From Thermoanaerobaculia bacterium (GTDB lineage: Bacteria; Acidobacteriota; Thermoanaerobaculia; Gp7-AA8), in NCBI GenBank assembly GCA_036001325.1, contig DASYUK010000375.1, positions 1,616 through 65,615 of the forward strand: a DNA stretch of 64,000 nt, written 5' to 3'. Shown piece by piece: positions 2,900 to 36,900 of the stretch. The position numbers and the translations under genes were made by a program. Under the pieces are notes generated by a model that searched no databases, was not told the origin of the DNA, and was given only the letters and a program-made list of their open reading frames with translations. Each line of letters begins with the position of its first letter. Within the stretch, counting starts at the first letter, position 1.

Positions 2900-2949
2900 C
2901 GACTTCCTCCACGACATTGGACACGGCCACGTCGCTAGAGGAAACCGCT

Positions 2950-3971
2950 TCAGTGCTTGACTGCGCGCCGCCTCGACGGAAGGCGCGACGGCTGCCAGCC
3001 GAGCTGCACGACCTCGAAGTCGCCGGCTTTCAGGGCCGCGAAGGCCGGATTGAGCAGATCGTTGTCCCAGCGCGCGTCATACGTCCCGCTCACGTACATG
3101 TCGCTGCCGTTGTCGGCGACGATCAGGCCGTAAGTTTTCATCGCCTGAAAGATTTTGCGCAACGGCTCGGCGAACGACGAGAGGTCTTGGATGCTTTCAG
3201 GCGCAAGCGGGCACCCATCGGCAACGCCCCCGCGGTATCTCCCGCTCGATGCGAGGCCGGATACACGTAGCCGTTTGAGGAACGCACCGTGACGCGAAAC
3301 GCGTGACGGATCGGATCGGGACCGTAGACCTCGTCGTAGCGAACAAGGCCCGGCAGGATCGCCAAGCCTGCTGCATCAGCACTGGTCCAGCCTTCAGGCC
3401 GGCGGCTGTTCGAGTCGAGAAGAAACACGGCGCCCGATCCCGCTTCCCACCGCGAGCCGCTCCAGTGCAGGGCGTACAGTTCATAGAGCAATCGATTGTC
3501 GCGATCGATGATCAGCATGTGCCGATCACCTTCGGCGCGCGGATCGTTTCCGGCGAGACCGCCCTCGATCCATTTCTGCTGCGTCTTGGCCTCTTCGGGA
3601 ATCGGATAACCGGGCGGGCGGCCGGGAGCGCCGATGTCGCTCTCATCGTCGTAATCGAAGGTGACGGGAACGAGCGGCTGCGTCGCCGAGACGGCGATGT
3701 ACGGCATTCCGTAGATCGGAGCGTCGGCGTCGCCGCTGTCGCCACCGAAGTCAGGATGCAACCCCCGCGACACGCCGATGAACGAAACGAGCGCAGCGCT
3801 CGCTGGATCGACTGGCGCGCCACTGATGTCGGTATTCCACCAGTTGTCAGGGGGAAAGAGCGGCAACGGAGATGGGAGCTCGCCGCCGCGCGCAGGTGTC
3901 TGCGCAAGGGCTGCGACCGCGAGCGAAAAAGCAAGCAGCGCGACGGCGATTCTCACGGGCATCCCGATCAC
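2950..3971 (-). pseudogene. Secreted hypothetical protein split over two frames (ORF 3138..3971 plus ORF 2950..3162); an apparent frameshift near 3190-3210 (authentic pseudogene or sequence error)
   Basis: ORF 3138..3971 has signal peptide MIGMPVRIAVALLAFSLAVAALAQ and ends ...ALPMGARLRLKAS followed by a junk tail. The neighbouring frame, open upstream of 3162, reads ...IQDLSSFAEPLRKIFQAMKTYGLIVADNGSDMYVSGTYDARWDNDLLNPAFAALKAGDFEVVQLGW, a natural continuation. My hand translation shows both frames open across about 3140-3290. Confidence 0.5.
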
Positions 3972-3976
3972 AGGTT

Positions 3977-4318
3977 CTACGCGCCTCTCGCCGCTTTGAT
4001 CAGCGCCTCCATATGATTGAGGTATCGCTCGAACGCGCGCCGTCCCGCGGCCGTGAGCGAATACTCAGTCTTCGGCATGCGGCCCTCGAATGATTTCTTG
4101 CAGGTGAGGTAATTCGCCTCTTCGAGCTTTCGCGTATGAACGCTGACATTGCCATCCGTCGTCTTCAGAATGCTTTTCAGCTCATTGAATGTGAGGCTTT
4201 GATTGGCGGCCAGCGCGCTGACGATCGCCAGCCGTGTCTTTTCGTGAATGAGTCGATCGAAATCGGGGATTTTCGTCTCGACGGGTTGACGACGTGCCGC
4301 CGCTGCTTTAGCCGCCAT
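3977..4318 (-). CDS. Winged helix-turn-helix transcriptional regulator (small, 113 aa)
   Basis: LAIVSALAANQSLTFNELKSILKTTDGNVSVHTRKLEEANYLTCKKSFEGRMPKTEYSLTAAGRRAFERYLNHM has the pattern of an HTH plus beta-wing. It overlaps the upstream membrane-protein gene by 11 nt (operon-like). Confidence 0.55.
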   Translation of the reverse strand: MAAKAAAARRQPVETKIPDFDRLIHEKTRLAIVSALAANQSLTFNELKSILKTTDGNVSVHTRKLEEANYLTCKKSFEGRMPKTEYSLTAAGRRAFERYLNHMEALIKAARGA

Positions 4319-4898
4319 AGCTCCTCGCGATGATGGTGCCGAAGGTCATGTGCAGGACGCCGAAGCCGGCGCCCAGGAGAATGTTTCCGACGGACAGGGG
4401 AACGAAACAGGCGGCGATGCCGAGGATCATGAAGCAGATTCCCATCACTGGAACGACGCGGATGGAGAACGCGCCGCTGCTGATGAACGACGCGCCGTAG
4501 AGAAGCAACCAGACCGCCGGAAGCGGGGCGAACATGTTGGCGCGGATCAGTGCGAGCGTGATCAGCGCTCCGGCGATCAGCGGTGCGCTGTACGAGATGA
4601 AAAAGCGTCGCGCTGGCGCTGCCGTGAACGACACACTCGCGCGCCGCGCCTTTCGAAACATCGTGAACACGGCGATGATCACCGCGACGACCGCTTCGAT
4701 CAGCCAGCTAACGACCCACAGCCGCGGTTGAACTGCATAGCGCGACGCGTACACCGACGTCGCGAGCGCCGTCACGCCAATCGCAAACCCGCCCCAACCC
4801 GGAATCGAGGTGAAGGCGGTGGCGCGCTCCATCGCATCGCGGATGTAGCGGATGTTGTGGAGCGCGTGTTCATGAAGCGCGTCGCTCACGGCGAGCAT
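4308..4898 (-). CDS. Integral membrane protein, hypothetical (about 5 TM helices)
   Basis: Hydrophobic segments GFAIGVTALATSVYA, WLIEAVVAVIIAVFTMF, PLIAGALITLALI, VWLLLYGASFISSGAF, VMGICFMILGIAACFV. Co-oriented with and overlapping the wHTH regulator gene. Confidence 0.55.
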   Translation of the reverse strand: MLAVSDALHEHALHNIRYIRDAMERATAFTSIPGWGGFAIGVTALATSVYASRYAVQPRLWVVSWLIEAVVAVIIAVFTMFRKARRASVSFTAAPARRFFISYSAPLIAGALITLALIRANMFAPLPAVWLLLYGASFISSGAFSIRVVPVMGICFMILGIAACFVPLSVGNILLGAGFGVLHMTFGTIIARSYGG

Positions 4899-4908
4899 GG
4901 TACGCCAG

Positions 4909-6360
4909 CTAGCGACGCCCTACCGAACGCCGGCGCGCCCGGCCGGTGAACCTCTCGAGGACGTTGCGCGTGATCTGTTGCGCGGCCGGACTGATCCACC
5001 CGCCCGGCGGGGTCGGCGATTCGCGCGTGCCGGTGTCATCGAGCCCGTACGCCCACTCCATCGAGCCCGTGCTGAAGACATACGCGCCGCTCACCGCCTG
5101 GTAGATCGTCATGTCCGAGTAGTCAGTGATCCCGTTGTTGTTGAAGGGAGAATGCGCGAGGCGGATCGTGCCGGAAGGAAAGGCGCTGAACATTCGGTCG
5201 ACCTCGTAGCCAAGGAGTCCGGAAAGGTGGTCACCAGGCTTGAGTCCGGTGTTCATGAAGACCCAGTGCGAGGTGTTCTCGACGACGATGTCGCCGGTGA
5301 CCGCCCCGTTGTGAAACGTCCACATGCTACCGATCAGCATCTCTTCGGGAAGATTGATCGGAGGATTGCGCCACAGGGTCGTGACGAGGTAGTCGTTGGT
5401 CGGATCGCCGTCCTTGGCAATCGGATCGCTCGAGAGCGCGCTTTCTTTGTATCCGACGATCGTGCGGTTCGGCTGCCCTTTCGAATCGGTCTCGAGACGA
5501 ATCTGCCAATAGCTGGTATTCGATGACAGGAAGGCGAGATTCACCCCGCGATCGCGCGCGCGCTCGACGTTGCGACGCATCTCATATGACCAGTACTCGT
5601 CGTGGCCCACCGATAAGAACGCGCGATGACGCAGAAGCGTGTCGGGTTGCGCGTGCGTGTCGATATTCGTGCAGTACGTCACGTCATAGCCTTCGCGCTC
5701 GAGAAAACGAATGGTTGGGTATTCCCAACGCTGAAACTCGGTGAAGCCCGCGCCTGCGCCGTAGGGCCGATCGAACGAGACCTTCGCCGCCTGCGGTCCG
5801 GTGCTGTTGAACGGATAGAGCGACTTCCCGCCCCAGCCGTTGTACGCATTCATCGTCGTGACGCTCGACTGGAACAGAAGACCCGACGCTCGCGCATCAT
5901 CGCGAACGACGAACATGATCCAGTTCTGCTGCCCGCCGGGCTGCGCCGTCAGCTTCGCGATATACACACCGCTCACCCAGTCGTTGGGAATCGTGATCGT
6001 GTACGGATCGGTCCACTGACATTCAATCAGACCGGTGACTGGATCGGGTGTCGGGACCGGCTGCATATGTCCCGCGATATCGTCGGCATCGAACACGCGT
6101 CTGCCGCCCAAACCGCCGTACCATCCCATGCGAAAGACATCGATGTCGAAGGTCTGTGCCGTTGTCGAGACGTAGAAGCTGATCGATCCGCCGACGTTGA
6201 CGCTCGTCAACGACGCGTAGCCTTCGATGTCGGTCGAGCGACCGGCGGCCAGCTTCCACGCCGATGTGCCGGGCCGAGCGTTCTCGTCCTGGATCGGATT
6301 ACCGAGGACGGTAGAGGCGATGAAGATCGCGAGGATGAAGGCGTGGCGCACGAAGCACAC
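4909..6360 (-). CDS. Secreted hypothetical protein (483 aa); distant, unverified resemblance to N,N-dimethylformamidase large-subunit-like proteins
   Basis: Long GC3-rich ORF. N-terminal signal peptide MCFVRHAFILAIFIASTVLG. No motif I can assign firmly. Confidence 0.55.
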   Translation of the reverse strand: MCFVRHAFILAIFIASTVLGNPIQDENARPGTSAWKLAAGRSTDIEGYASLTSVNVGGSISFYVSTTAQTFDIDVFRMGWYGGLGGRRVFDADDIAGHMQPVPTPDPVTGLIECQWTDPYTITIPNDWVSGVYIAKLTAQPGGQQNWIMFVVRDDARASGLLFQSSVTTMNAYNGWGGKSLYPFNSTGPQAAKVSFDRPYGAGAGFTEFQRWEYPTIRFLEREGYDVTYCTNIDTHAQPDTLLRHRAFLSVGHDEYWSYEMRRNVERARDRGVNLAFLSSNTSYWQIRLETDSKGQPNRTIVGYKESALSSDPIAKDGDPTNDYLVTTLWRNPPINLPEEMLIGSMWTFHNGAVTGDIVVENTSHWVFMNTGLKPGDHLSGLLGYEVDRMFSAFPSGTIRLAHSPFNNNGITDYSDMTIYQAVSGAYVFSTGSMEWAYGLDDTGTRESPTPPGGWISPAAQQITRNVLERFTGRARRRSVGRR

Positions 6361-6378
6361 CGCAGCAAACGAGATGCC

Positions 6379-7728
6379 CTAGTGATGCGCGCTGCGGCGC
6401 TTGTTCACCGAAGATTCAACCTGCACCGTGAGCGTCGTCTCGTTCGCGATCGTGCCGCTCGTCATGCGGATCTTCAGCCGATACTGTCCCGGCGCGGCGT
6501 TCGCGTTCGGCGTCAGGGTTAGCACCGCCGGCGCTCCGACGCGCGCGGTCGTAGTGACCGAAAGGCTGCCGGGAAACGCGTCGATCTGCTGCACGGCGAC
6601 ATCCGCGATGCCGCTCCAGCCATTGATCGATGTGACCGCGTAGATCACCTGCGACTGCTGTCCCGCTTTCGCCACGAGTACGGTCGGACCGGCGATGACG
6701 AAGTTGCCCGCCACCGGCGTGCCGCCGCTCGATGATGAATTGTGCAGCCGTGCCACGTCGGTCCAGATCGCGGGATCCTCGCCGCCGGCGCGCCAATGTG
6801 CGAAGCCGCCGATCTGCGGATGTTTCTTCAGAATCGCATCGACCTTCTTCGCGTAGCTCGACGAGTCCTGGAAGTACACTGTGCGACCGCTGTAGGCGAA
6901 TGTCGCCTCGCCGTTCGCGTCGTACGCGATCTGCGCGCCGACGCGTTGCGCCAGCGCGACCGCTTCGCTGTACACGAGATCCGTCGCGTTCGTCCCCTGC
7001 CAATCGTAGCCATACCACGGCAGACCCATAATGATCTTCTGCGCCGGCATGGTCGCCTCGGCATACGTCGCGATGTTGTCGAGCCAATTGAGCGGCGCGA
7101 TCGCCCCCGCGGCGCTTCCGTCCCAATGATTGTCGTACGCCATGATCTTGACGGTATCGGCGGCCGCGCCGATCGCACGCCAATCCTCACCAGCGGGGCC
7201 GCTCCAGTTGTCGGCGTCGCTCGTCTTCGCACTCACAGTCACCGAGAGCTTCTTTCCCGCTCCATGAAGTTTCTGCGCGAGAAGCTGCACGAACAGAGTG
7301 AAGTTCGGCCTGGCCGCCGCGTTCATGCTCTCGTAGTCGATGTCGATCCCCTCGTACGCGTTCTGCACCACGAGCTGCGTCAGCGCCTCGGCGTGCTTCT
7401 CGCGGAGTGTCGGTGAGCCGACGACGTTCGCCACCAGGTTGCCGTCGAACTTTCCGCCGACGTAGTTCTTGATCGTGGGAACGAGATCGATGCCGGCGAG
7501 CGCGGCGCGCATGTCGGCCGCTTCGGCGTTGGAGTTCTTCGTGACACCGCCGTCGGCTGCGATCGTGTACCAGCCCGGATTCGCTTCATCGAGCTTTCCG
7601 GCGTTCGACTGCATCGAAGCGAGCGCCTTGCTGTCCCAGGCGGGGACCCAGGCGGACATTCGATACGCGTGCGACGGAATCGCGACGGCGAGCAGTACAA
7701 CTGAGAGCCAACCGGCTCGTGACCGCAT
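6379..7728 (-). CDS. Glycoside hydrolase family 18 (chitinase-like) with a C-terminal Ig-like/beta-sandwich domain, secreted
   Basis: Signal peptide MRSRAGWLSVVLLAVAIPSHA. GH18 catalytic motif EGIDIDYE (DxxDxDxE) and MAYDNHWDG. C-terminal ~100 aa are beta-rich (VIAGPTVLVAKAGQQSQVIYAVTSINGWSG...). Confidence 0.75.
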   Translation of the reverse strand: MRSRAGWLSVVLLAVAIPSHAYRMSAWVPAWDSKALASMQSNAGKLDEANPGWYTIAADGGVTKNSNAEAADMRAALAGIDLVPTIKNYVGGKFDGNLVANVVGSPTLREKHAEALTQLVVQNAYEGIDIDYESMNAAARPNFTLFVQLLAQKLHGAGKKLSVTVSAKTSDADNWSGPAGEDWRAIGAAADTVKIMAYDNHWDGSAAGAIAPLNWLDNIATYAEATMPAQKIIMGLPWYGYDWQGTNATDLVYSEAVALAQRVGAQIAYDANGEATFAYSGRTVYFQDSSSYAKKVDAILKKHPQIGGFAHWRAGGEDPAIWTDVARLHNSSSSGGTPVAGNFVIAGPTVLVAKAGQQSQVIYAVTSINGWSGIADVAVQQIDAFPGSLSVTTTARVGAPAVLTLTPNANAAPGQYRLKIRMTSGTIANETTLTVQVESSVNKRRSAHH

Positions 7729-8590: not shown

Positions 8591-9615
8591 GCGACGCGGC
8601 TCGCCAGCTCCGTCGCAATCGGCAGAAGCTTGACAAAGACCTTATCCGCCTCCGGCCGTTTCAATTGCCGCACGATCAGCTCATGCGTTCCGCGTCCGAG
8701 GACGCGCGTGACGCAGTCGACCTTTTGCGCGATTCCGTCGACGGTGGCGATGACGACGCCGTGCTTGGGGTCGCGCGTGATCGACGCTTCGGAACCGTCG
8801 TCGAAGGCCATGTGTACCTGGTCGAGAGCGCCGTTCTCCTCATCCTTCCGGAGCGAGAATTCGTAATCGCTCACTGCAGCGCCCTGCGCCTTCAACCACG
8901 CCGCGTAATAAAGCGATTCGATCGAATCGCCGAAGAGCTTCTTCGCGCCGCCGATGGCGACGATTCGCAGCTTGCGAATTTTCTGCAGGCGCTCCCGCAT
9001 CGACGGCGGATCGAAGAGCGACGCCGTGGCGAGACGCCAATCCTCGAGTCGAACCCAATTCAGGTCGGCGGGGGCGGTGAAGGTGCGCTCAGCGATCTCG
9101 CGCAACCACACGAGATCGGCAACGGAATCGAAATGCGATGAGTCGACGATGAGCCGGTCCGCCGGATCGAGCAACGTCTCCACATACGCGTGCTCCTCGT
9201 TCGGCAGATCGCCCACCCACCACACCGCCACCGGCATGTCGGGGATCAGCAGCGCATTGACGAGCGGCGGAATGTGCCGCACGCGATTTCCGCCGGCGAC
9301 GATCGCCACCTCTTCCGAGCAGACCTGCTTCTCGGCGCCGACGCGATGGCAGTTCGCGCTGATCCACGATGCGATCTCCGACGGGCCGTGCAAGTCGGCG
9401 CGGATGACGATGGCGCGCTGCGGCACCGACTCACTCGCTCGCGCGAGCGTCTCGCTGGCAAACGAGTGATCGCGCGGATTGAACGTGTGCGTGACTACGT
9501 TCCACAGCGCCGCGCGCGTAACCGCGCCTTCGGTGTCCTTCTCACTGCGCCACAACTCGGCAAGCTTCTTCTCGATCGCCGAATAGTCGATCGAGACTTC
9601 TTCGGTTGCAGTCAC
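8587..9615 (-). CDS. opcA: Glucose-6-phosphate dehydrogenase assembly protein OpcA
   Basis: Lies between zwf and pgl. VSIDYSAIEKKLAELWRSEKD resembles the OpcA N-terminus. I place the start at a GTG overlapping the zwf TGA stop (GTGA), preceded by GGAGGAG, rather than the track start at 9750, which would overlap zwf by 139 nt. Confidence 0.65.
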   Translation of the reverse strand: MTATEEVSIDYSAIEKKLAELWRSEKDTEGAVTRAALWNVVTHTFNPRDHSFASETLARASESVPQRAIVIRADLHGPSEIASWISANCHRVGAEKQVCSEEVAIVAGGNRVRHIPPLVNALLIPDMPVAVWWVGDLPNEEHAYVETLLDPADRLIVDSSHFDSVADLVWLREIAERTFTAPADLNWVRLEDWRLATASLFDPPSMRERLQKIRKLRIVAIGGAKKLFGDSIESLYYAAWLKAQGAAVSDYEFSLRKDEENGALDQVHMAFDDGSEASITRDPKHGVVIATVDGIAQKVDCVTRVLGRGTHELIVRQLKRPEADKVFVKLLPIATELASRVA

Positions 9616-11174
9616 GGTCTCCTCCAGCGACGGCCGTCGCGCTCGATCAAGGCATCCGCCGCTTCCGGTCCCCACGTCCCCGCCGGATAGAAGTGCGGCG
9701 GCTTCGGATCTTCGGCCCAGCATTTCAGCAGCGGATCGAGCCACGCCCACGCCGTCTCCACTTCGTCGCGACGCGCGAACAGCGTCGAATCGCCGAGCAT
9801 CGTCTCGAGCAGCAGCCGTTCGTAAGCTTCCGGCGGCTCAGCACCGAACGAGGTCGCGTAGCGAAACTCCATCGTCACCGGCGCGGTCCGCACCGTCGGT
9901 CCCGGGAGCTTCGAATCGAACTTCAGCGAGATTCCTTCGTCGGGCTGAATGCGAATCGCCAGCACATTCGAGGGCATCTTCACTTTGCTGAACAGCGGAT
10001 ACGGTGCGGGGCGGAAGTGGATGGAGATATCGGTGACACGCTTGGATAGCCGCTTGCCGGCGCGGATGTAGAACGGCACGTCGGCCCATCGCCAGTTGTC
10101 GATGAAGACTTTCATCGCCGCGAACGTCTCCACTCGCGAGTTTGGATCGACGTGCGGCTCCTTCCGATAAGCGATCGCCGGCGAGCCGAGCACGGAGCCA
10201 TCCGTGTATTGGCCGCGCACCGCGAGCTGCTCCTCGCGGCCGGGTGGAAACTCGCGCATCGCGCGCAACACCTTCACCTTCTCGTCGCGGACCGCGTTGG
10301 CCTCGTACTCCACCGGCGGCTCCATCGCGACCAGAGAGACGAGTTGCAGCATGTGGTTCTGGATGATGTCGCGACTGATGCCGGCGGTCTCGAAATACCC
10401 GCCGCGCTTCTCGATGCCGATCGACTCCGCGACCGTGAACTGCACATGGTCGATATATTGACGATTCCAGAACGGCTCGAAGATTCCGTTCCCGAATCGC
10501 AGCACCAGCAGGTTCTGAACCGTTTCTTTGCCGAGGTAGTGGTCGATGCGGAAGACCTGGCGTTCCCGAAAGGTGCTGACGGCGACGCGATTCAACTCGC
10601 GCGCTGATGGCAGATCGTGGCCAAACGGTTTCTCGATGATGACGCGCGTGTACGGCCCGCCGCGCTCCGGATCGGTGACCATCCTCTGCCCGCCCAGGAT
10701 CTCGCAGATCGTCGGGAAGAACTGCGGCGGAACCGCGAAGTAGTAAATGCGCCGTCCGCCCGTGCCACGCGTGCGATCGCACTCTTCGAGCTTCTTGCGC
10801 AATCGCGTGTAGGCGTCGAGTTCACCGAACTCGCCCTGCACGTAAAAGAGACCCTTCGCGAAGTTCTGCCAGATCGCCTCATCGACCGGCTTCGTGCGCG
10901 CGAACTTGTCGCACGCTTCGCGCATGGCCATGCGAAAGGCGTCGTCCGAGTACTCCGGCCGCGCGAAGCCGATGATCGTCTGCCCGGCCGGAAGAAGCCC
11001 GTCGTGTGCGAGCGAATACAGGCCGGGGATCAGCTTCCGCTGTGTCAAATCGCCGGACGCGCCGAAGATGACCAGACAGGAGGCGTCGGGAACCCGTTCC
11101 TGATCCAGACCCTCTCGCAGAGGATTGGCCTCGAGGACGGGCGCCAGCGTCGCCATGAGTCCTTGATTATCCAT
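9612..11174 (-). CDS. zwf: Glucose-6-phosphate 1-dehydrogenase
   Basis: Signature RIDHYLGKE present (VFRIDHYLGKETVQNLLVLRFGN). N-terminal NADP-binding region GASGDL. 520 aa. Confidence 0.9.
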   Translation of the reverse strand: MDNQGLMATLAPVLEANPLREGLDQERVPDASCLVIFGASGDLTQRKLIPGLYSLAHDGLLPAGQTIIGFARPEYSDDAFRMAMREACDKFARTKPVDEAIWQNFAKGLFYVQGEFGELDAYTRLRKKLEECDRTRGTGGRRIYYFAVPPQFFPTICEILGGQRMVTDPERGGPYTRVIIEKPFGHDLPSARELNRVAVSTFRERQVFRIDHYLGKETVQNLLVLRFGNGIFEPFWNRQYIDHVQFTVAESIGIEKRGGYFETAGISRDIIQNHMLQLVSLVAMEPPVEYEANAVRDEKVKVLRAMREFPPGREEQLAVRGQYTDGSVLGSPAIAYRKEPHVDPNSRVETFAAMKVFIDNWRWADVPFYIRAGKRLSKRVTDISIHFRPAPYPLFSKVKMPSNVLAIRIQPDEGISLKFDSKLPGPTVRTAPVTMEFRYATSFGAEPPEAYERLLLETMLGDSTLFARRDEVETAWAWLDPLLKCWAEDPKPPHFYPAGTWGPEAADALIERDGRRWRRP

Positions 11175-11246
11175 GGGGTCAGGTCTTCAATTTTCAGTTT
11201 TTTCCACTTGCGGTAGGAAAAAACTGAAAATTGAAGACCTGACCCC
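11175..11246. repeat. Perfect 31-bp inverted repeat with a 10-nt loop, AT-rich, directly abutting the zwf start codon in the zwf/thiolase divergent intergenic region
   Basis: GGGGTCAGGTCTTCAATTTTCAGTTTTTTCC-acttgcggta-GGAAAAAACTGAAAATTGAAGACCTGACCCC; the arms are exact reverse complements (checked base by base). It generates mirrored peptides in track ORFs 11045..11251 and 11173..11421. Confidence 0.9.
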
Positions 11247-11269
11247 AGCAACTGCTAAAGTTCGCGGTC

Positions 11270-12562
11270 ATGTTCGAGTACATGCAACGCGTCGCGGTGA
11301 TCCGCGGCGTCCGCACCCCATTCGCAAAATCAGGAACGCACTACGCCCGCCTGTCGGCTCTCGATCTCGGCAAGATGGCCGTGACGGAGCTCGTCGAGCG
11401 CACAGGGATCCATCCGAATGAAGTGCAGGAAGTCGTCTTCGGCAACGTGATCCCCTCCGTCAAAGCCCCCAACATCGCCCGCGAAATCGTCCTCGGTACC
11501 GGCCTTCCGAAGAAGATCCCCGGCTACACGGTCGGCAAAGCGTGCACGTCGGCGAACCAGGCCATCACCGCTGCGGCGGACATGATCTCGCGCGGTTACG
11601 CCGACACGGTCATCGCCGGCGGATCGGAATCGCTCTCCGACATCCCGATTCTCTTCTCCCGAAACATGTCGGAGGCGCTGACCGGCGCACAGAAAGCGAA
11701 GAGCGTGGCCGCGAGGGTCGGCGCGTTCAAGAAAGTGCGGCCGAAGGATCTGGTCCCCGATGCGCCCGCGATCGCGGAGTCGACGACCGGTCTGTCGATG
11801 GGCGAATCGGCCGAGAAGATGGCGAAGGAGAATCGGATCTCGCGTGAGGCGCAGGACAAGTTCGCGCTGCAGAGTCACCTTCGTGCGGCGCAAGCGACCG
11901 AAAGTGGACGCTTCAAGGATGAAGTGATGACGGTGGTCGTGCCTCCCGGCTACGACGAGGTCGTCGAGATTGACAATCTGATTCGCGCCGACACGACGCT
12001 CGAGGCGCTTTCGAAGCTTCGGCCGGTATTCGATCGAAAGTACGGAACGCTGACCGCCGGCAACTCATCGCCGCTGACCGATGGTGCCGCCGCCGTGCTG
12101 CTGATGTCGGAAGACAAAGCGAAGTCGATGGGCTTCAAGCCGATCGGTTTCATCAGGAGCTATGCCTACGCCGCGACCGATCCGTTCGATCAGCTTCTAC
12201 AGGGACCCGTGTTCGCGTTACCGACGGCGCTCGATCGAGCGAAGGTCACGTTGAAAGACATCGGCGTGATCGAGATGCACGAGGCCTTCGCCGCACAAGT
12301 TTTGTCGAACATTCAATGGATCGGCTCGAAAAAGATCGCCCAGGAGAAACTCGGACGCAGCGAGCCGGTCGGCGATATCGATCCAGAGTCGATCAATCTG
12401 ACGGGCGGTTCGATCGCCCTCGGACATCCGTTTGGCGCGACAGGCGCGCGCATCGTCACGACGGTCTGCAACGAGCTGCAGCGCACCGGCAAACAATACG
12501 GACTCGTGACTGTGTGCGCGGCGGGCGGGATGGGCGTGGCGATGGTGCTCGAGCGGGAGTAG
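11270..12562 (+). CDS. Acetyl-CoA C-acyltransferase (thiolase family)
   Basis: Thiolase N-terminal pattern VIRGVRTPFAKSGTHYARLSALDLG. Active-site Cys region GYTVGKACTSANQAI. C-terminal CAAGGMGVAMVLERE. Confidence 0.9.
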   Translation: MFEYMQRVAVIRGVRTPFAKSGTHYARLSALDLGKMAVTELVERTGIHPNEVQEVVFGNVIPSVKAPNIAREIVLGTGLPKKIPGYTVGKACTSANQAITAAADMISRGYADTVIAGGSESLSDIPILFSRNMSEALTGAQKAKSVAARVGAFKKVRPKDLVPDAPAIAESTTGLSMGESAEKMAKENRISREAQDKFALQSHLRAAQATESGRFKDEVMTVVVPPGYDEVVEIDNLIRADTTLEALSKLRPVFDRKYGTLTAGNSSPLTDGAAAVLLMSEDKAKSMGFKPIGFIRSYAYAATDPFDQLLQGPVFALPTALDRAKVTLKDIGVIEMHEAFAAQVLSNIQWIGSKKIAQEKLGRSEPVGDIDPESINLTGGSIALGHPFGATGARIVTTVCNELQRTGKQYGLVTVCAAGGMGVAMVLERE

Positions 12563-12651: not shown

Positions 12652-15600
12652 TCACCACGTCGAAGCGATCTTCCACGCTGGGAGGTCACCGATCTCCACG
12701 TTGTAAGCGAAAGGTTCGAACGGATTGCGCACGACGCGCACATTGGTTTGAGAGCGCAGTGTGGACATCAACTGCCCATAGGGCAACGTCTGCATCGGAG
12801 ACCTCGAAAGATCAGGCATGGGCCATAGGCGTACGCCAGTTGCGTCTGAGGACGCAATCCAGCGCCCGTCGGACGACACCGCCACGAGCGGTAGGAGGGA
12901 TTCCTGATCTGCATTGGCGATCAGGAGATGTGGCGTCTCGCCGGACGCTGGCCCAATTCGCCCGACGGTGTTCGTGCTCCAGGTGGCGATGAATCTCCCC
13001 GACGGATCGAATGACGCGGACATGACGTGCTCACCGTGCGAAGTAACAAGTTGCGCCGCACCCGTTTCAACGTTCGCGATCGCCAGTCGATGACGGTGTC
13101 GGTCTTCACTCGACTCACCGATGACAAGATGTCGTCCATCGGCTGCAATGTCGATAAGAGGCAGTCCGAGCTGCCGCCGATATACAACGCGTTGTTTTCC
13201 GTCGTGGAGATTCCAGACGCGCACATCGCCTCGGCCCGCTGTGATGAGACGGCCATCGGGCAGGAAGCCAACATCCCAGATCGTGCCAAACATGACGTTT
13301 TGTGCGGTTTTTCGTGTCGATGCTCCCGATGGTTCGAGAGTTGTCCGCTGTCCTGTGTCGACGTCCCATAGCCAGATCTCGCCCGCACCGCGGCCATTCT
13401 GTGTGCCGGCAACCGCGAATTTTCCATCGCGGGTGAGTGCCGACGACATCAAATAGTGCGAACCATTGGAAGGAACTGATAACTGCTTCTCAAAACCCGA
13501 TGCCACGACTGATGCCCGATTGTAGTCGCCGACGAAAACGCGGTGATCACTGCCATCAACGGAGGTGGTCCATCCGGCGGATCGCGTAAGCCACTCGCTC
13601 TTGCTCGCGACCGCAAAGCTGACGGGCAACCGCAGAACTCCGCTCTCTCGCGTTGCCAGGAGCCATCGGCTATCGGAGGAAAAATCCAGATCCTTCGCCG
13701 GTGCCCGCGAAAGGATGAACGGGTATCGTCTCGATAGCGGCCAGAGCGCCGCGGTGGCGCCCATCACATCCGTGGACGCGAGCCAGCGACCGCGCGGATC
13801 GAACGTGATGGCGTACGCGTCGGGCGTTCTGATCATGAGCGGCTCGGCGTCGGGCGGCCCCTGGAGGTTCCACAGCTCGATGAGGGTTCGTCTGGCGACA
13901 CCGAGCATCGTGCCCGTCGCATCGAAGCGGATGTCATGGAGTTTGATCGGTTCGCTCGAGAGTGCGAACGGATCACGATTGATGGAGCGGACGAGAGCAG
14001 GCACGGCGGCCGACAAAGTCCACAATCTGATTTCGCCACGGGCGTTTCCGCATGCGATCTGGTTGCCGTCGGACGAGAAGGTAACGAGATTGGCGTGCGG
14101 CAAGTCCGGCCAAAGCGCCCATGCTCTCGCAGATGGAATCAATGGGACCAGACTGCAGTCAGACAATGCCATCCAGCGTTCGGTGGGATCGACAATGCCG
14201 ATGTCTTTCGCGCGAAGAATGTCGTGGACCGGAACGCCTGTAATCGGCGAGACCGAAAGAATCTTCAGACCATTACTCGCGCTGCGACAAGTGTAGACGC
14301 GATTGGCAACCACTTGAAAACCACAATCGCCATCGATGATGCGAATCACTGCGCGCTTGCTGAGCGACCACACGCGGGTCTTGCGGTCCATGGAATATCT
14401 GACGAGAAGCAGATCGCTTTCCGGCCCGAACGCGACCGGACCGACATTGCCTGAAGCTCCAGGAACGCTCAGAGCTTGGGCTGCCCGTCCTCCTTCCCCG
14501 TAGAGGAAAACTCGCCCATCATTTCCGCCAATAGCGAGCCAGCGACCGTCCGGACTGAAGGCGAAGCCGCCGGATCCCTCCGCACTCGGAAGAGCGACAC
14601 GCGTCGCCACGGGTCCACGCCAAAGTGCTTCCACCGCGAATTGACGTGCCTCGGTGGAATCGGCAAGTTCGAGACTCGCGATGGTGTACGCGAGCGCGAC
14701 AGCATTGCTCTTATCGACGTTCATCCGCCCGAACGCCAGAAGCTTCGCCGCTTCGGCTTGTTTCATCGCTGCGATGGCACGGTGCCGCAGCACGGCCATC
14801 ACAACGACCGTTGCAACCAGAACGATGAATGCCGCGGTGGTCGCCATGACTGCGCGGCGGCGGCGGCGCTTCGCGAGGTGCGCCATCGCTCTTCCGAAGT
14901 CGTCTTCGACGTGCGTCAATGTTCCGGGATATCGCTCGCGCCACAGTTCGTACTCTTTCAGCGCTGTACCGCTCCAAAGCAGATCGTCGGAGCGTTCGCG
15001 GCCATCCCACATCTGTGCTGACTGACGCAGCTGATCGCGCAGCAGCGCACCATCGGCATCCTGCGCCTGCCATCGGACCAGCCGAGGCCAGGAAGTGAGC
15101 AGCGACTCGTGAATGAATTCGATGCGCGTCTCGTCACTCTTGTACGACGTCAGCAGTCGTGCGCCGATGAGTACGTCGAGAACTTCATTCGCCGCGCGTC
15201 GATCTGCAAAGAGCGAAAGGAGTTCTTTTCGATCGCGCCCGACACGCGTTCCCTGCGCCGTTACCAGATTCCGGAACAGCTCTCGAACGATGGCAATGTG
15301 CTCGGATTCCATCGGCGCTAATGCGGCTTCGGCGTGTTGGGCCAACGCCCCGGCGACTCCTCCGATCTCCAGATATGTCGCGCGCGTGAGGACGCCTTGT
15401 TCCCGATCGCGACGCTCCCATAGACGGGCCATCGCGAACGCGGCCAGAGGAAGTACGCCTCGCTCACCACCAACCTGCTCGACGATTTCATCGACGAGCG
15501 CCTCTTCTTCGAAGGCATATCCCGCTTTCAATGCCGGCTGCACGATCGCTCGGCGTAAAGCGTCGCCGGTTGGCGGAAGCAGCGGAGTCAGCTCCGAGAA

Positions 15601-16947
15601 AAGTGGTGCGAAACACGCGAACTGGTGACAGAAGATCAGGAAATCGTCGCGTATCGAAAGAAGCACGTGCACGTCCGCTTCAATGGCGAGGCGCGAGAGA
15701 ATATCTGCGCACCCCGCCTGAATCGCCGGTGAGTTGAGCGTGAAGAGCTCCTCGGCTTGATCCACGATGAGCAAACATCCTTCGTGCTCATGCCGCCAGC
15801 TCTTCATGACACTCAGTACCTTCGCCACGTCGTCGAATGCGTCGAGGTCGCTGAACTCTCTTGTGAGCGCGGCGAAAGGGCGATCTCCCGGAGTGAGCAT
15901 CAGCACGCCCCAACCTGGCGGCAGCGCCGGCACCAGTCCTGCGCGAAGGAAAGATGTCTTCCCGACGCCGGAGGGACCGATCAGACCGAGAAGGCGCGCC
16001 GGCCCGGCCAGCCTTCGCAACATCGTCTCGATCTCCGTCTCCCGACCGAAGAAGTTCGGAGCCTCTGCTTCGGTGAACGATGAGAGACCGGGATAAGGAC
16101 TGCGTTCTCCCGCTCGCGTGAACCGGCGAGTCATGTCCTCCAGTGCGCGCGCCAGCTCGGCCGACGACGCATAGCGCGTCTCGGGATTCGCAGCGAGGGC
16201 ACGGCGAAGAATGGACGACCACGGTGTATCGGGAAGATGGGGCGGATCGTGTCGTACGGCTGACCAGACGCGCTCGAGATCCGTCCCGCCGCGGACTCCG
16301 GTCGGGTCGATCATCTCTCCCAGCACGACGCCTGCGGCAAAGATGTCGGCACGTTGTCCGGGCGTTTGTTCCGGCGCGATGTACGGACGAGTGCCTGTGA
16401 TCGACGATGCGGACGCGTCCATCGCCGATCGCGTCAGCCCGAAATCCATGACCACCACGCGACCGCTGCGCGTGATCATCACGTTTTCCGGCTTGAAGTC
16501 GCCGTGAATGAATCCGGCGGCGTGAATTGCGTTCAATCCGGCCAGAAACTGCGCAGCGATCTCCTGTGCCTCGGTGAGCTCGAGCGGGCTTCGCTCGGTG
16601 AGCAAAGTTCTCAGCGTCGTTCCGTCGATGTACTCCATCGACAGGAGCTCGAGACCTTCGGCTTCCACGAGATCGAACGTCCGGCATACGTTGGGAGAGA
16701 TGACTTCGCGCGCTGCTCTGATCTCGCCCCGCAGAGACTCCATCGATTCCCGTTGCAGGAACTTGAGCGCAACGTCGACGCGCAGTCGCAGATCAAATGC
16801 TTGCCAGACCTCGCCCATCCCACCGTGACCAAGCGGCCGCACGATCTCATAACGGCTCGCGAGAATTTGGCCACGGCCGAGGAACGACTCCTCGTCTGAG
16901 CGAGGACGTTGATCGGCAGTCACGGGAAGAGCGCGCGAATTGTCCAT
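12652..16947 (-). CDS. Multidomain Ser/Thr protein kinase: kinase domain, P-loop (STAND/NB-ARC-like) NTPase, single TM helix, WD40/TolB-like beta-propeller (1431 aa)
   Basis: Kinase: GHGGMGEVWQAFD, VALKFL, catalytic loop IHGDFKPENVMI (HGD instead of HRD), DFGL. P-loop GLIGPSGVGKTSFLRAG with downstream LLIVDQAEE (Walker B-like). TM AVMATTAAFIVLVATVVVMAVL. Repeats FSPDGRWLAIGGNDGRVFLY, FSSDGNQIACGNARGEIRLW and others. Confidence 0.8.
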   Translation of the reverse strand: MDNSRALPVTADQRPRSDEESFLGRGQILASRYEIVRPLGHGGMGEVWQAFDLRLRVDVALKFLQRESMESLRGEIRAAREVISPNVCRTFDLVEAEGLELLSMEYIDGTTLRTLLTERSPLELTEAQEIAAQFLAGLNAIHAAGFIHGDFKPENVMITRSGRVVVMDFGLTRSAMDASASSITGTRPYIAPEQTPGQRADIFAAGVVLGEMIDPTGVRGGTDLERVWSAVRHDPPHLPDTPWSSILRRALAANPETRYASSAELARALEDMTRRFTRAGERSPYPGLSSFTEAEAPNFFGRETEIETMLRRLAGPARLLGLIGPSGVGKTSFLRAGLVPALPPGWGVLMLTPGDRPFAALTREFSDLDAFDDVAKVLSVMKSWRHEHEGCLLIVDQAEELFTLNSPAIQAGCADILSRLAIEADVHVLLSIRDDFLIFCHQFACFAPLFSELTPLLPPTGDALRRAIVQPALKAGYAFEEEALVDEIVEQVGGERGVLPLAAFAMARLWERRDREQGVLTRATYLEIGGVAGALAQHAEAALAPMESEHIAIVRELFRNLVTAQGTRVGRDRKELLSLFADRRAANEVLDVLIGARLLTSYKSDETRIEFIHESLLTSWPRLVRWQAQDADGALLRDQLRQSAQMWDGRERSDDLLWSGTALKEYELWRERYPGTLTHVEDDFGRAMAHLAKRRRRRAVMATTAAFIVLVATVVVMAVLRHRAIAAMKQAEAAKLLAFGRMNVDKSNAVALAYTIASLELADSTEARQFAVEALWRGPVATRVALPSAEGSGGFAFSPDGRWLAIGGNDGRVFLYGEGGRAAQALSVPGASGNVGPVAFGPESDLLLVRYSMDRKTRVWSLSKRAVIRIIDGDCGFQVVANRVYTCRSASNGLKILSVSPITGVPVHDILRAKDIGIVDPTERWMALSDCSLVPLIPSARAWALWPDLPHANLVTFSSDGNQIACGNARGEIRLWTLSAAVPALVRSINRDPFALSSEPIKLHDIRFDATGTMLGVARRTLIELWNLQGPPDAEPLMIRTPDAYAITFDPRGRWLASTDVMGATAALWPLSRRYPFILSRAPAKDLDFSSDSRWLLATRESGVLRLPVSFAVASKSEWLTRSAGWTTSVDGSDHRVFVGDYNRASVVASGFEKQLSVPSNGSHYLMSSALTRDGKFAVAGTQNGRGAGEIWLWDVDTGQRTTLEPSGASTRKTAQNVMFGTIWDVGFLPDGRLITAGRGDVRVWNLHDGKQRVVYRRQLGLPLIDIAADGRHLVIGESSEDRHRHRLAIANVETGAAQLVTSHGEHVMSASFDPSGRFIATWSTNTVGRIGPASGETPHLLIANADQESLLPLVAVSSDGRWIASSDATGVRLWPMPDLSRSPMQTLPYGQLMSTLRSQTNVRVVRNPFEPFAYNVEIGDLPAWKIASTW

Positions 16948-33913: not shown

Positions 33914-33956
33914 AATGTTGAATGTTCAACATTCAACATTGAACATTCAACATTCC
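33914..33956. promoter_or_regulatory. AT-rich heptamer-repeat palindromic array directly upstream of dnaE2 (candidate operator)
   Basis: AATGTTG AATGTTC AACATTC AACATTG AACATTC AACATTC C. The first 27 nt, AATGTTGAATGTTCAACATTCAACATT, form a perfect palindrome around a single central base. Confidence 0.5.
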
Positions 33957-33967
33957 TCGTTCTCCTT

Positions 33968-36900
33968 ATGTCGCACGGCAGAAAACCGACAAGAAACCTC
34001 GACGCTCTCCAGATCACCTACGCTGATCCGGCAGGGCACAAGGAGAAGGTCAAGAACCGTGTGACGAACGTTCCTCTCTCCCGCGAGTACGATCACATTC
34101 CCTTCGTTCCTGAGAAGTTCGGCGGGACGAAACCGAATGAGGAACCGGAGGAAAAGACTCCGAAACTCCGCAACCGTGCAACCGCGAAACGCCCCTACGC
34201 CGAGCTCCGCGCGGCAAGCGCGTTCTCCTTCCTCGACGGTGCTTCGCTGCCCGAAGACTTGATGTACCACGCCGCCGATAAGGATCTGCCGGCGATGGCT
34301 CTCGTCGACACGAATGGTGTGTACGGCGCTCCTCGGTTCTATTCGGCAGCGAAGAAAACAGGGGTCAAGGCGCTCGTCGGAAGCGAACTGGTTCTCGAGA
34401 CCGACCACCGCTTCACAGTCCTCGTCGAAAACCGCACCGGCTATAAAAACCTGTGCAAGCTCGTCACGGCTGGAGCGGCCGGGCGCGAGAAAGGGAAAGC
34501 GCGCTTCAACTGGGGATTGATCGAGCAGTACAACGAAGGTCTGCACTGCCTCACGCGTGCCGATGACGAGACCATCAACAAAATCGCCGGCATTTTCAAA
34601 AACAGAACGCACCTCGAGTTGCAGCGACATTTCAATCGCGACGAAGAGCGTCACAACATCCGCCTGGTCGATCTCGCGCGGCGTCTGAAGCTGCCGATCG
34701 TCGCGACGAACGGCGTCCGCTACGCCCGCGCACAGGATAAGGAGCTGCACGACGTCCTCACGTGCATCCGCGAGACGACACACGTCGACAAAGCGGGCCG
34801 CCTCCTGGGCGTGAATCGGGAGCGCTACGTCAAGACCGCCGATGAGATGTGCCGCCTGTTCGCCGATCTGCCGGAAGCGATCGATGGCGCCTGGTCGCTC
34901 GCCAACACGCTCGACTTCACGCTCGCCGACCTCGGCTACCAGTTCCCTGACTATCCGCTGCCGCCGGGAGAGACTACAACATCGTTTCTGCGCAAGATCG
35001 CCTGGAACTCGGCAAAGTCGCGTTTCCGTCCGCTCACGGCGAGAGCGCAGTCGCAGATCGAGAAAGAGCTGAACATGATCGAGAAGCTCGATCTGGCCGG
35101 CTACTTCCTCATCGTCTGGGACATCGTTCAGTTCTGCAATCGCGAAAAGATCATCGTGCAGGGCCGCGGCTCGGCGGCCAACAGCGCCGTCTGCTACGCC
35201 CTCGGCATCACCGCGGTCGATCCGGTGAAGATGGAGCTGCTCTTCGAGCGCTTCCTCTCCGAAGAGCGCGGAGAGTGGCCGGACATCGATCTCGATCTCC
35301 CCTCCGGCGATCAGCGCGAGAAAGTCATCCAGCACGTCTACAAAACGTACGGCGTGCACGCCGCGGCGATGACCGCGAACGTCATCACGTATCGCGATCG
35401 CTCCGCGGCGCGCGAAGTTGGCAAAGCGCTCGGCTATTCGCTCGAGCAGGCCGACAAACTCTCGAAATGCGTCTCGACCTGGAACTTCGGCGAGATCCGC
35501 GAAGCGATGGAGAACCTGCCGGGTGAGCTCGAGAAAACGGGATTCGATCCCGCTGATCTCCGCGTACAACACTTCATGCGCCTCTACATGCACATCCAGA
35601 ATCTGCCGCGACATCTCGGCCAGCACTCCGGCGGCATGGTCATGGCGAAAGGACGGCTCGACGAAGTCGTGCCGCTCGAGCCGGCATCGATGCCCGGCCG
35701 CGTCGTCATTCAGTGGGACAAGGACGACTGTGCCGATCTCGGCCTCATCAAAGTCGACCTCCTCGGCCTCGGCATGCTGGCGGCGATCGAAGAGGCACTG
35801 CCGCTCATCCGCGACAACGAAGGAAAAGAAGTCGATCTCGCCCATCTGCCTCAGAACGATCCGCTCGTTTACAAGATGCTGAACGAGGCTGACACGATCG
35901 GCATGTTCCAGGTGGAGAGCCGCGCGCAGATGGCTTCACTGCCGAGGAATGCGCCGAAGAAGTTCTACGACATCGTCGTGCAGGTGGCGATCATCCGTCC
36001 CGGCCCGATTGTCGGCGGCATGATCCGTCCGTTCTTCGATCGGCGTCAGGGGCGCGCGCCGGTCGAGTATCCGCACCCGTGCCTCGAGCCGATTCTCAAG
36101 CGCACGCTCGGCGTACCGCTGTTCCAGGAGCAGCTTCTCCGTATCGCGATGGTCGCGGCCAATTTTACCGGCGGCGAAGCCGAAGAGCTGCGAAGAGCGA
36201 TGGGATTCAAGAGGTCGATGGAGCGGATGCACGAGATCGAAGGACGGCTGCGCGCGGGGATGACTACGAACGGCATCGATGCGAAAGCGCAGGATCAGAT
36301 CGTCAAGTCGATCACGTCGTTCGCGCTCTACGGCTTTCCCGAATCGCACGCGGCGAGCTTCGCGCTGATCGCGTATGCGAGCGCGTACATCAAAGCGCGA
36401 CATCCGGCGGCTTTTTATGTCTCGCTGCTGAACGCGTGGCCGATGGGTTTCTATCATCCGGCGACGCTCGTCAAAGATGCGCAGCGGCATGACACCGAGG
36501 TGCTTCCGATCGACATGAATCATTCTGGTTGGAAGTGCCGTTGGGAAAACGGCGGCGTACGTCTCGGACTGCGATTCGTTAAAGGGCTGCGCGAAGCGAC
36601 GGCAAAGAAGATCGAAGCGAATCAGCCATTCCAATCGACGGAAGATCTCGCCTATCGGTGCAAGCTGCGCGACGATCAGCTCACGAAGCTCGCCTACGCC
36701 GGGGCACTGAGCTCACTCGGACTCACGAGACGAGGGGCGTTGTGGCAGGCGTCGAAAGCGGCAAAGCCCGCGGGCGAACTCTTCGAAGGACGCGCCGCCG
36801 AGGGCGGCGGCGCTCCACTGAAGGAGATGTCAGAGATCCAGAACACCATGGCTGACTACCACGCGATGGAGCTCACGACGGGGCCGCATCTCGTCGAGCA

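What the first reader, a model, noticed from the sequence alone, without database searches (positions are those of the whole stretch)
11175..11246. Perfect 31-bp inverted repeat touching the zwf start codon
A 72-nt element (31-bp perfect arms, 10-nt loop) with an AT-rich core (TTCAATTTTCAGTTTTTTCC) in a ~67% GC genome fills most of the 95-bp space between the divergent zwf and thiolase genes. It begins 1 nt from the zwf ATG. Such a stable hairpin in the zwf 5' leader would occlude ribosome access unless the promoter is inside it or it is a protein-binding operator. Perfect symmetry suggests a recent mobile miniature element or strong selection. It is a candidate redox/carbon-flux control point for the OPP operon.
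Basis: seen in the sequence. Interest (0 to 1): 0.55.

Follow-up and report, generated by a model that had tools for sequence, protein, structure and literature searches.

The report
Mobile hairpin inserted in zwf promoter
The perfect palindrome next to zwf is real, but it is a gene-less copy of a known kind of small mobile element (the two ends of a tyrosine-transposase "TIRtron") that landed between the zwf and thiolase promoters in this lineage only, not a conserved switch for the pentose-phosphate operon.

Summary
The palindrome exists: arms 11174-11205 and 11216-11247 (32 nt each, 100% complementary) with a 10-nt loop, and it is unique in the window. It is not a conserved zwf regulator. 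Every orthologous zwf locus I fetched (Zwf 87-93% identical) lacks it. The nearest thiolase-zwf loci have a 37-nt gap, against 113 nt here.

A near-identical copy sits at an unrelated locus in another Thermoanaerobaculia genome. The family has no target-site duplications.

The same inverted repeats bracket Y1/HUH tyrosine-transposase genes with a C-terminal HTH in four loci. The termini fit the published GGGGWSAS motif of TIRYT "TIRtrons" (Di Nocera 2013; Quentin 2018). So the element is a non-autonomous TIR dimer, analogous to a REPIN.

Family members normally sit at gene 3' ends (34 convergent gaps against 9 divergent). This copy is atypical: it lies between two back-to-back -10-like boxes of apparently leaderless zwf and thiolase genes. 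The true zwf start is probably ATG 11156-11154, so the hairpin is most likely upstream of the transcript rather than in a 5' leader. Any effect on expression is untested. Novelty: new member of a known kind.

The parts
11174..11205 (.). Left arm of the palindrome: one copy of the terminal inverted repeat (TGGGGTCAGGTCTTCAATTTTCAGTTTTTTCC).
   Evidence: the repeat finder I1. Matched by the arm profile built from 276 family arms.
11206..11215 (.). 10-nt loop ACTTGCGGTA.
   Evidence: The loop has the same orientation in four independent metagenome assemblies.
11216..11247 (.). Right arm: the second copy of the terminal inverted repeat, an exact reverse complement of the left arm.
11175..11182 (+). 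Terminal motif GGGGTCAG, mirrored as CTGACCCC at 11239-11246. It fits the TIRYT/TIRtron TIR consensus GGGGWSAS.
   Evidence: Sequence. Consensus taken from PMC3733652 and PMC6006769.
11172..11174 (-). In-frame ATG formed at the junction of element and flank. Gene callers use it as the zwf start (520 aa), but it is probably spurious.
   Evidence: JGI gene calls give the 520-aa product. The closest homologues are 514-515 aa. See also alignment A2.
11166..11171 (-). GATAAT, a -10-like box for zwf. It corresponds to the TACAAT that is conserved in all orthologues 7-9 nt before the ATG. The element begins 2-3 nt upstream of it.
   Evidence: The invariant columns of alignment A2 are A-AATC. Its promoter function is inferred.
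9612..11156 (-). zwf (glucose-6-phosphate dehydrogenase), with the probable true start at ATG 11156-11154. It is followed by opcA and pgl.
   Evidence: Pfam G6PD_N and G6PD_C. Homologue lengths. Alignment A2.
11256..11261 (+). TAAAGT, a -10-like box for the thiolase, 8 nt before its ATG. The corresponding box is TATAAC in L142 and TATAAG in L145.
   Evidence: Its function is inferred.
11270..12562 (+). Thiolase gene, divergent from zwf.
   Evidence: Pfam Thiolase_N and Thiolase_C.

Best explanation
The palindrome is a non-autonomous, gene-less derivative of a TIRtron. A TIRtron is a ~0.9-1 kb element in which a RAYT-like Y1/HUH tyrosine transposase (TIRYT, with a C-terminal HTH) is bracketed by ~27-nt terminal inverted repeats that begin GGGGTCAGGTCTT. 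Here the two repeats sit head to head around a 10-nt loop, so either DNA strand can fold into a long hairpin, much as a REPIN does.

It was inserted in this Thermoanaerobaculia lineage into an ancestral ~37-nt thiolase-zwf gap, between the two outward-facing -10-like boxes. It left no target-site duplication, which is as expected for single-strand HUH-type transposition. Mobilisation would be in trans, by a TIRYT encoded elsewhere in the genome or in an ancestor.

Shown: the presence/absence polymorphism, the dispersal, the shared TIRs with TIRYT genes, and the lack of target-site duplications.

Inferred: the transposition mechanism; that zwf and the thiolase are transcribed as leaderless or near-leaderless mRNAs from those boxes; and that the hairpin is therefore promoter-upstream DNA rather than part of the mRNA. 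On that reading its local effect is a by-product. It replaces the DNA upstream of both -10 boxes and places its A-tracts roughly 40-50 nt upstream of the two starts. It was tolerated, and it is not a dedicated regulator.
For: 1. Insertion. Orthologous loci L142 and L143 (Zwf 87% identical), L145 (93%) and L146 (90%) lack the element. L142 and L143 have a 37-nt thiolase-zwf gap. Alignment A2 shows a ~76-nt insertion in the window only.

2. Dispersal. A copy with a 32/32 identical arm lies between unrelated genes in Thermoanaerobaculia MAG contig L001. At least 120 metagenome loci and 3 viral contigs carry hairpins with the same termini. In L106 two copies 2.4 kb apart are similar exactly from GGGG to CCCC.

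3. Link to a transposase. Y1_Tnp ORFs in L039 and L097 are bracketed by one family arm at each end, and gene-less hairpins on the same contigs differ from those TIRs by 1-2 nt. Two further TIRYT homologues, chosen only by protein similarity (L148 and L149), have the same TIRs. NCBIfam matches REP_Tyr_transpos, and Pfam finds C-terminal HTH_23 or HTH_28 on L039 and L097 and a faint HTH_23 on L149.

4. Fit to the literature. The termini fit the published TIRYT TIR motif GGGGWSAS / GGGG[AT][CG]A[CG].

5. No target-site duplication at any boundary definition in 140 copies.

6. Co-varying arms. Arm positions 14-27 vary between copies but match within a copy: 79% against 44 +/- 1% for shuffled partners.

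7. Genuine sequence. The same sequence was recovered in four independently assembled samples.
Against: - No TIRYT gene was found in the 64-kb window, and none with this subfamily's exact TIR (…CTTCAATTTTCAG…) was found anywhere, so a cognate mobilising enzyme is not demonstrated for this lineage.
- Only two loci of the exact subfamily are known (the window and L001), and the window holds a single copy.
- TIRYT transposition has never been shown experimentally, according to the papers read.
- The invariance of the outer 12 nt across the family is partly forced by my search pattern.
- Promoter and transcription-start assignments rest only on sequence conservation. A genome-wide look for the same -10 architecture was inconclusive (3 of 34 genes).
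- Elements were not enriched at contig ends (12 observed, 10.7 expected).
Confidence: 0.8

Rival explanations
1. The inserted element has been co-opted as a promoter module. Its symmetric A-tracts act as UP-like elements for both divergent promoters. In addition or instead, the perfect palindrome extrudes as a cruciform under the negative supercoiling generated between divergent promoters, coupling zwf and thiolase expression to supercoiling or growth state.
For: The element lies directly upstream of both -10-like boxes. Its A6 tract (11218-11223, mirrored by a T6 tract on the left arm) falls about 26 nt upstream of the zwf box and 32 nt upstream of the thiolase box (sequence), near where UP elements act in E. 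coli (general knowledge). The hairpin is very stable as ssDNA. The insertion is kept unchanged in four samples.
Against: The AT-rich arms are a subfamily trait shared with the L001 copy at an unrelated locus, not a local adaptation. Orthologues work without the element. There are no expression data. The family as a whole avoids divergent gaps (9 against 34 convergent), which suggests that promoter insertions are usually selected against rather than recruited.
Confidence: 0.12
2. It is a dedicated operator or RNA hairpin that regulates zwf. Either a repressor binds the palindrome, or a 5'-leader structure blocks ribosome access.
For: It is close to the zwf start and has perfect dyad symmetry.
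Against: It is absent from every orthologous zwf locus examined, and the same sequence occurs at unrelated loci. Arms of 32 nt are far longer than typical operators. The probable start codon and a conserved -10-like box lie downstream of it, so it is probably not transcribed with zwf. No Rfam family matches above threshold.
Confidence: 0.04
3. It is a classical MITE mobilised by a DDE transposase, or a canonical REP/REPIN of a GTAG-type RAYT.
For: It has terminal inverted repeats, no coding capacity and a dispersed family. Like REPs, the family is biased toward gene 3' ends (PMC3733652).
Against: There are no target-site duplications. The only gene found bracketed by these repeats is a Y1/HUH enzyme, not a DDE transposase. 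There is no GTAG or CGTC foot, and the individual arms are not 20-40-nt palindromes.
Confidence: 0.03
4. It is an assembly or sequencing artefact, such as a fold-back chimera.
For: Palindromes can be created by assemblers. The related contig L145 does show a fold-back at this very promoter gap, and contig L013 ends inside the element.
Against: The identical 74-nt sequence, with unique and non-mirrored flanks on both sides (zwf on one side, thiolase on the other), is present in the window and in three further independently assembled contigs. It is also a member of a large natural family.
Confidence: 0.01

Closest known systems
TIRtrons and TIRYT-associated TIR repeat families (Di Nocera, De Gregorio and Rocco 2013, PMC3733652; subclass 2.1 TnpA-REP-like proteins of Quentin et al. 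2018, PMC6006769)
   Same: The outer motif GGGGTCAG fits GGGGWSAS. The same inverted repeats bracket a RAYT-like Y1/HUH gene, with a C-terminal HTH_23 or HTH_28 domain detected on L039 and L097 and faintly on L149. Gene-less repeats occur as head-to-head dimers dispersed in genomes. An acidobacterium (Koribacter versatilis) was among the original examples.
   Different: This particular GGGGTCAGGTCTT family, its abundance in metagenomes (at least 120 loci, contig G+C 0.33-0.74, at least two phyla) and its tight placement after stop codons were not found described in the papers I could read. For the window's own AT-rich-arm subfamily no cognate TIRYT was found.
REPINs / BIMEs mobilised by RAYTs (Bertels and Rainey 2011, PMC3116915)
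   Same: Two inverted copies of a transposase-recognised repeat form a long hairpin. The element is non-autonomous. The associated enzyme is a typically single-copy HUH Y1 protein whose gene is flanked by the repeats. There are no target-site duplications, and there is a bias toward convergent and tandem gaps.
   Different: There is no GTAG foot. The individual arms are not themselves short palindromes. The arms are ~27-nt TIRs rather than 20-40-nt REP stem-loops.
Bacterial MITEs that land in promoter regions (for example Correia/NEMIS elements of Neisseria; recalled from general knowledge and listed in the background of PMC3733652)
   Same: A short palindromic, gene-less element inserted next to a start codon, with the potential to alter promoter architecture and to mislead gene callers.
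   Different: Those elements are DDE-derived with TA or similar target-site duplications. This family has none and is tied to a Y1/HUH enzyme.
IS200/IS605 elements
   Same: A Y1/HUH transposase (Pfam Y1_Tnp), no target-site duplication, and hairpin-forming DNA as the likely substrate.
   Different: IS200/IS605 ends are two different subterminal hairpins, not long matching terminal inverted repeats. TIRYTs carry an extra HTH domain.

Membership tests
TIRtron-derived TIR repeat (TIRYT-associated) | Outer ends carry the GGGGWSAS motif | tested here: met
   GGGGTCAG at 11175-11182 and its complement at 11239-11246. Consensus.
TIRtron-derived TIR repeat (TIRYT-associated) | The same inverted repeats bracket a RAYT-like Y1/HUH gene with a C-terminal HTH | tested here: met
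   Met for the family: L039 1575-2493, L097 4790-5779, L148 9905-10878 and L149 9904-10890. All four genes hit Y1_Tnp. HTH_23 or HTH_28 was found on L039 and L097 and faintly on L149, but not recorded for L148. REP_Tyr_transpos matched L039, L097 and L060.
TIRtron-derived TIR repeat (TIRYT-associated) | A cognate TIRYT with matching TIRs exists in the same genome | not testable with these tools
   A profile search found none in the 64-kb window.
TIRtron-derived TIR repeat (TIRYT-associated) | Repeated and dispersed, often as head-to-head dimers | tested here: met
   At least 120 loci for the family. For the exact subfamily there are only two loci, the window and L001. The window itself has one copy.
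TIRtron-derived TIR repeat (TIRYT-associated) | No target-site duplication (HUH-type single-strand transposition) | tested here: met
   Direct-repeat matches at the flanks were at chance level for lengths of 2-9 nt and four boundary definitions, in 140 copies.
REP / REPIN (GTAG-type RAYT) | A GTAG (or CGTC) tetranucleotide foot next to a 20-40-nt palindromic unit | tested here: not met
   The flank logo shows only a weak T at position -2, and the arms are not self-palindromic. Definition.
Classical DDE-type MITE | Target-site duplication flanking the TIRs | tested here: not met
Conserved cis-regulator of zwf (operator or leader RNA) | Present at orthologous zwf loci | tested here: not met
   Absent from L138-L147, whose Zwf proteins are 87-93% identical to the window's.
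Intrinsic (Rho-independent) terminator | A short G+C-rich stem followed by a U-tract, downstream of a gene | tested here: not met
   The stem is 32 bp with an AT-rich core and no T-run after it, and it lies between two gene starts. The terminator scan did not call it.
Any Rfam RNA family | A match at or above the family's gathering score | tested here: not met
   Only generic miRNA-hairpin hits far below threshold. No hits in 20 other family loci.

The most novel reading that the evidence does not exclude
The GGGGTCAGGTCTT hairpins might form a cross-phylum, REPIN-like population maintained by TIRYT enzymes and routinely co-opted by hosts: at gene 3' ends as U-tract-less bidirectional terminators or mRNA stabilisers. 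This rare promoter copy might have been recruited as a symmetric UP-like or cruciform module that couples zwf (NADPH supply) and thiolase expression to DNA supercoiling.
Probability: 0.1. Interest if true: 0.6.

Novelty: new member of a known kind. Interest (0 to 1): 0.3.

Why it matters
It removes a tempting but wrong lead: this is not a conserved redox or carbon-flux switch. It also shows that the insertion misleads gene callers, because the public gene calls start zwf at an ATG created at the element junction and so add six codons.

More broadly, it gives a concrete handle on TIRtron/TIRYT elements, which are barely studied and have never been shown to transpose. That handle consists of a very abundant hairpin family with defined ends, matched filled and empty sites, and matched autonomous copies. 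The window is also a natural experiment in which 74 bp were dropped between two back-to-back, apparently leaderless promoters.

Tried and rejected
- **Rfam.** The element and 20 other family loci gave only sub-threshold miRNA-hairpin matches.
- **Plasmid BLAST.** No hits to PLSDB plasmids.
- **Literature search for the terminus.** A full-text search for the 11-mer terminus found only unrelated primers.
- **One-arm 21-mer matches.** The matches in Desulfobulbaceae, Paenibacillus and others (L002-L009), and L014, lie in coding or unrelated sequence and were discarded.
- **Target-site duplications.** None.
- **Contig-end enrichment as a sign of repetitiveness.** No signal: 12 observed against 10.7 expected.
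- **Enrichment of particular neighbouring genes.** None: 152 unrelated Pfam families among 148 neighbours.
- **Class 3 HUH proteins with a "CnGA foot"** (Quentin 2018; about 600 hairpins in Solibacter). I considered these because the termini contain CTGA. The bracketed proteins carry NHYH...Y[IV]VLNP (L060: NHLH...YIEMNP), which is RAYT/TIRYT-like, not the class 3 signature NHVH...YV[VI]xEQ. The class 3 hairpin sequences were not in the held supplements.
- **One-sided insertion target.** The flanking T...A signal is weak and not anticorrelated between the two sides.
- **Genome-wide test of the leaderless -10 architecture.** Inconclusive.
- **Sigma-70 promoter scan.** It found no two-hexamer promoter in the gap.

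Full report
**1. The observation**

The window contains a perfect inverted repeat with arms at 11174-11205 and 11216-11247. Each arm is 32 nt and the two are 100% complementary, separated by a 10-nt loop (ACTTGCGGTA), 74 nt in total. It is the only long perfect inverted repeat in the 64 kb. The arm sequence occurs nowhere else in the window, and no shuffle produced a match. It would fold very stably: -64.5 kcal/mol as RNA in a 126-nt context (z = -10) and -37.9 kcal/mol as single-stranded DNA (z = -14.4).

On the minus strand lie zwf, then opcA and pgl. On the plus strand lies a thiolase. Window G+C is about 0.62, not 0.67.

**2. Where zwf really starts**

The A of that codon is the last base of the palindrome.

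The organism is a Thermoanaerobaculia bacterium (Acidobacteriota), judging from the names attached to its closest Zwf homologues. Those homologues, 87-93% identical, are 514-515 aa long. In a DNA alignment of nine orthologous upstream regions, their start codons align with the second ATG at 11156-11154 (alignment A2). The upstream ATG is created at the junction between the element terminus (…CCCCA) and the flank (TG), and is probably not the real start.

**3. It is an insertion, not a conserved part of the zwf locus**

I fetched the loci that encode the closest Zwf proteins.
- L142 and L143 (87% identity) have the same divergent thiolase-zwf arrangement but only a 37-nt gap.
- L145 (93%, the closest relative) reads …CAGTTCATCGTTACAATCAGCGCCGCATG with no element.
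- L146 (90%) has a different 109-nt gap without it.
- L138-L141 and L147 have a different upstream gene.

In alignment A2 the window carries a ~76-nt insertion relative to L142, L143 and L145. The same 74-nt sequence is present in four independently assembled metagenome samples of the source project, so it is not an assembly artefact.

**4. It belongs to a large dispersed family**

An exact 21-mer from the arm found one relevant hit among 185,579 species-representative genomes. This was contig L001 of another Thermoanaerobaculia MAG. There, an element with a 32/32 identical arm, a 30-nt loop and a slightly imperfect second arm lies between two unrelated divergent genes.

A pattern that requires only the termini (GGGTCAGGTCTT, then 40-70 nt, then AAGACCTGACCC) found 3 real elements in viral contigs. 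The loci come from soils, sediments and waters, and their contig G+C ranges from 0.33 to 0.74.

The consensus arm is (T)GGGGTCAGGTCTTGMATTnYGACATTT. My pattern forced the outer 12 nt, so their invariance is partly ascertainment. The inner 14 positions were not forced. They use all four bases across the family, yet the two arms of one element match at 79%, against 44 +/- 1% for shuffled partners. Complementarity decays after about 27 nt.

In L106, two copies 2.4 kb apart are similar exactly from GGGG to CCCC, which defines a discrete unit. There are no target-site duplications for any tested length or boundary. Rfam has no matching family.

**5. What the family is**

A motif scan of all ORFs in the fetched loci found three with HUH…Y signatures. 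Pfam confirms all three as Y1_Tnp, two of them with C-terminal HTH_28 or HTH_23. NCBIfam matches REP_Tyr_transpos.

In L039 and L097 the gene is bracketed by one family arm at each end, in inverted orientation. The resulting elements are 919 bp and about 990 bp. Gene-less hairpins on the same contigs differ from those terminal repeats by only 1-2 nt. Two further homologues were chosen only by protein similarity and contig length: L148 from a Rokuibacteriota MAG, and L149. Both are bracketed by the same GGGGTCAGGTCT… repeats.

This is the architecture that Di Nocera et al. (2013) named TIRtrons. These are RAYT-like "TIRYT" genes flanked by long terminal inverted repeats sharing GGGGWSAS, and in some genomes the repeats form moderately abundant families organised as dimers (PMC3733652). 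Quentin et al. (2018) place most TIRYTs in their subclass 2.1, with HTH_23, HTH_28 or DnaA_C-like tails and the repeat consensus GGGG[AT][CG]A[CG] (PMC6006769). GGGGTCAG fits that consensus exactly.

The window's palindrome is therefore a head-to-head dimer of TIRtron terminal repeats. It is non-autonomous and analogous to a REPIN. No TIRYT gene is present in the window.

**6. Where family members normally sit, and why this copy is odd**

I used one crude gene caller for all loci.
- Element-bearing gaps: 34 convergent, 39 tandem, 9 divergent.
- Gaps without an element in the same loci: 95 convergent, 282 tandem, 98 divergent.
- The convergent-versus-divergent bias has p of about 9e-5.

The median distance to an adjacent gene 3' end is 11.5 nt. 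Many convergent gene pairs have stop codons within 1-8 nt of both ends of the element. Di Nocera et al. report the same bias for REPs. The window copy, between two gene starts, is one of the rare exceptions.

Neighbouring genes are 152 unrelated Pfam families with no enrichment. Two other family members happen to adjoin pgl or zwf genes, which I regard as weak and probably coincidental.

**7. Likely local consequences (inferred)**

Across nine orthologous upstream regions that are otherwise unalignable, the only invariant block is TAnAATC, 7-9 nt before the zwf ATG. The window has GATAAT at 11171-11166. I read this as the -10 box of a leaderless or near-leaderless promoter.

The thiolase has an analogous box: TAAAGT at 11256-11261 in the window, TATAAC in L142 and TATAAG in L145, 6-8 nt before its ATG. 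In the empty sites the two boxes are only about 11 nt apart, back to back. The element sits exactly between them, 2-3 nt from the zwf box.

Three things follow on this reading:
- The hairpin is upstream of both transcription starts, not in a 5' leader.
- It cannot occlude the ribosome on zwf mRNA.
- It has replaced whatever lay upstream of each -10 box, which in the ancestor was the other gene's start region.

The element's A6 and T6 tracts lie about 26 nt upstream of the zwf box and 32 nt upstream of the thiolase box. A perfect palindrome between divergent promoters could also extrude as a cruciform. A promoter effect is therefore conceivable. However, the AT-rich arms are shared with the L001 copy at an unrelated locus, so they are a subfamily trait and not a local adaptation. 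A genome-wide look for the same -10 architecture was inconclusive, and the two-hexamer promoter scan found nothing in the gap.

**8. Verdict**

The "mobile miniature element" alternative is right, but the element is a Y1/HUH (TIRYT) derivative without target-site duplications, not a classical MITE. The "control point for the OPP operon" reading is not supported.

The element is a new member of a known but little-studied kind. Its interest lies mainly in three things: the size and definition of the family uncovered, the matched filled and empty sites and autonomous copies, and the annotation artefact it causes at zwf.

Noticed in passing
window 33923-33967: Four copies of a TTCAACATT-type 9-mer (tgttcaacattcaacattgaacattcaacatt) lie directly upstream of a 1090-aa ORF (33968-37240, +). 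The array looks like an operator or iteron.
   Followed up: no
window 11172-11174 (also L010-L013): Public JGI gene calls start zwf at the ATG formed at the junction of element and flank. This gives a 520-aa product with a probably spurious MDNQGL extension.
   Followed up: yes
L145 1-260: The contig encoding the closest Zwf (93%) begins with the reverse complement of its own zwf 5' end. It is a fold-back centred on the near-palindromic promoter gap AACTTATATCAGTT, probably an assembly chimera.
   Followed up: partly
L071 871-951; L091 1394-1460: Two other family members also adjoin pentose-phosphate genes: one between the zwf 3' end and pgl in L071, and one next to pgl in L091. That is 2 of 140 elements, which is weak and probably chance.
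   Followed up: partly
L060 7698-7850: About 12 tandem copies of CTGAAAATT directly adjoin a hairpin element. The same 9-mer occurs in the window's arm at 11223-11231.
   Followed up: no
L017 (IMG/VR contig) 1872-7248: Five 53-nt copies of the hairpin lie in a 7.4-kb viral contig, so phage genomes also carry the family. A Mu-like gpT head protein appeared among the neighbour Pfam hits, possibly from this contig.
   Followed up: no
L025, L042, L059, L073, L149 10878-10927, L017 7197-7277: Composite arrays occur: extra half-elements or tandemly duplicated right ends next to complete elements, reminiscent of BIME-like clusters.
   Followed up: no
window 45594-46541 (-): A perfect TATAAT lies 9 nt before this ORF's TTG start. 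It is another possible leaderless promoter in this genome.
   Followed up: no
window 55011-55093: A 27-nt inverted repeat, 93% complementary (AGTGAAGGACAGGCGCC…), lies inside a 1045-aa ORF (52412-55549, -). It is unrelated to the TIR family.
   Followed up: partly
window 12652-16947 (-): A 1431-aa protein combining a Ser/Thr kinase domain, an nSTAND1 NTPase and WD40 repeats lies immediately downstream of the thiolase.
   Followed up: no
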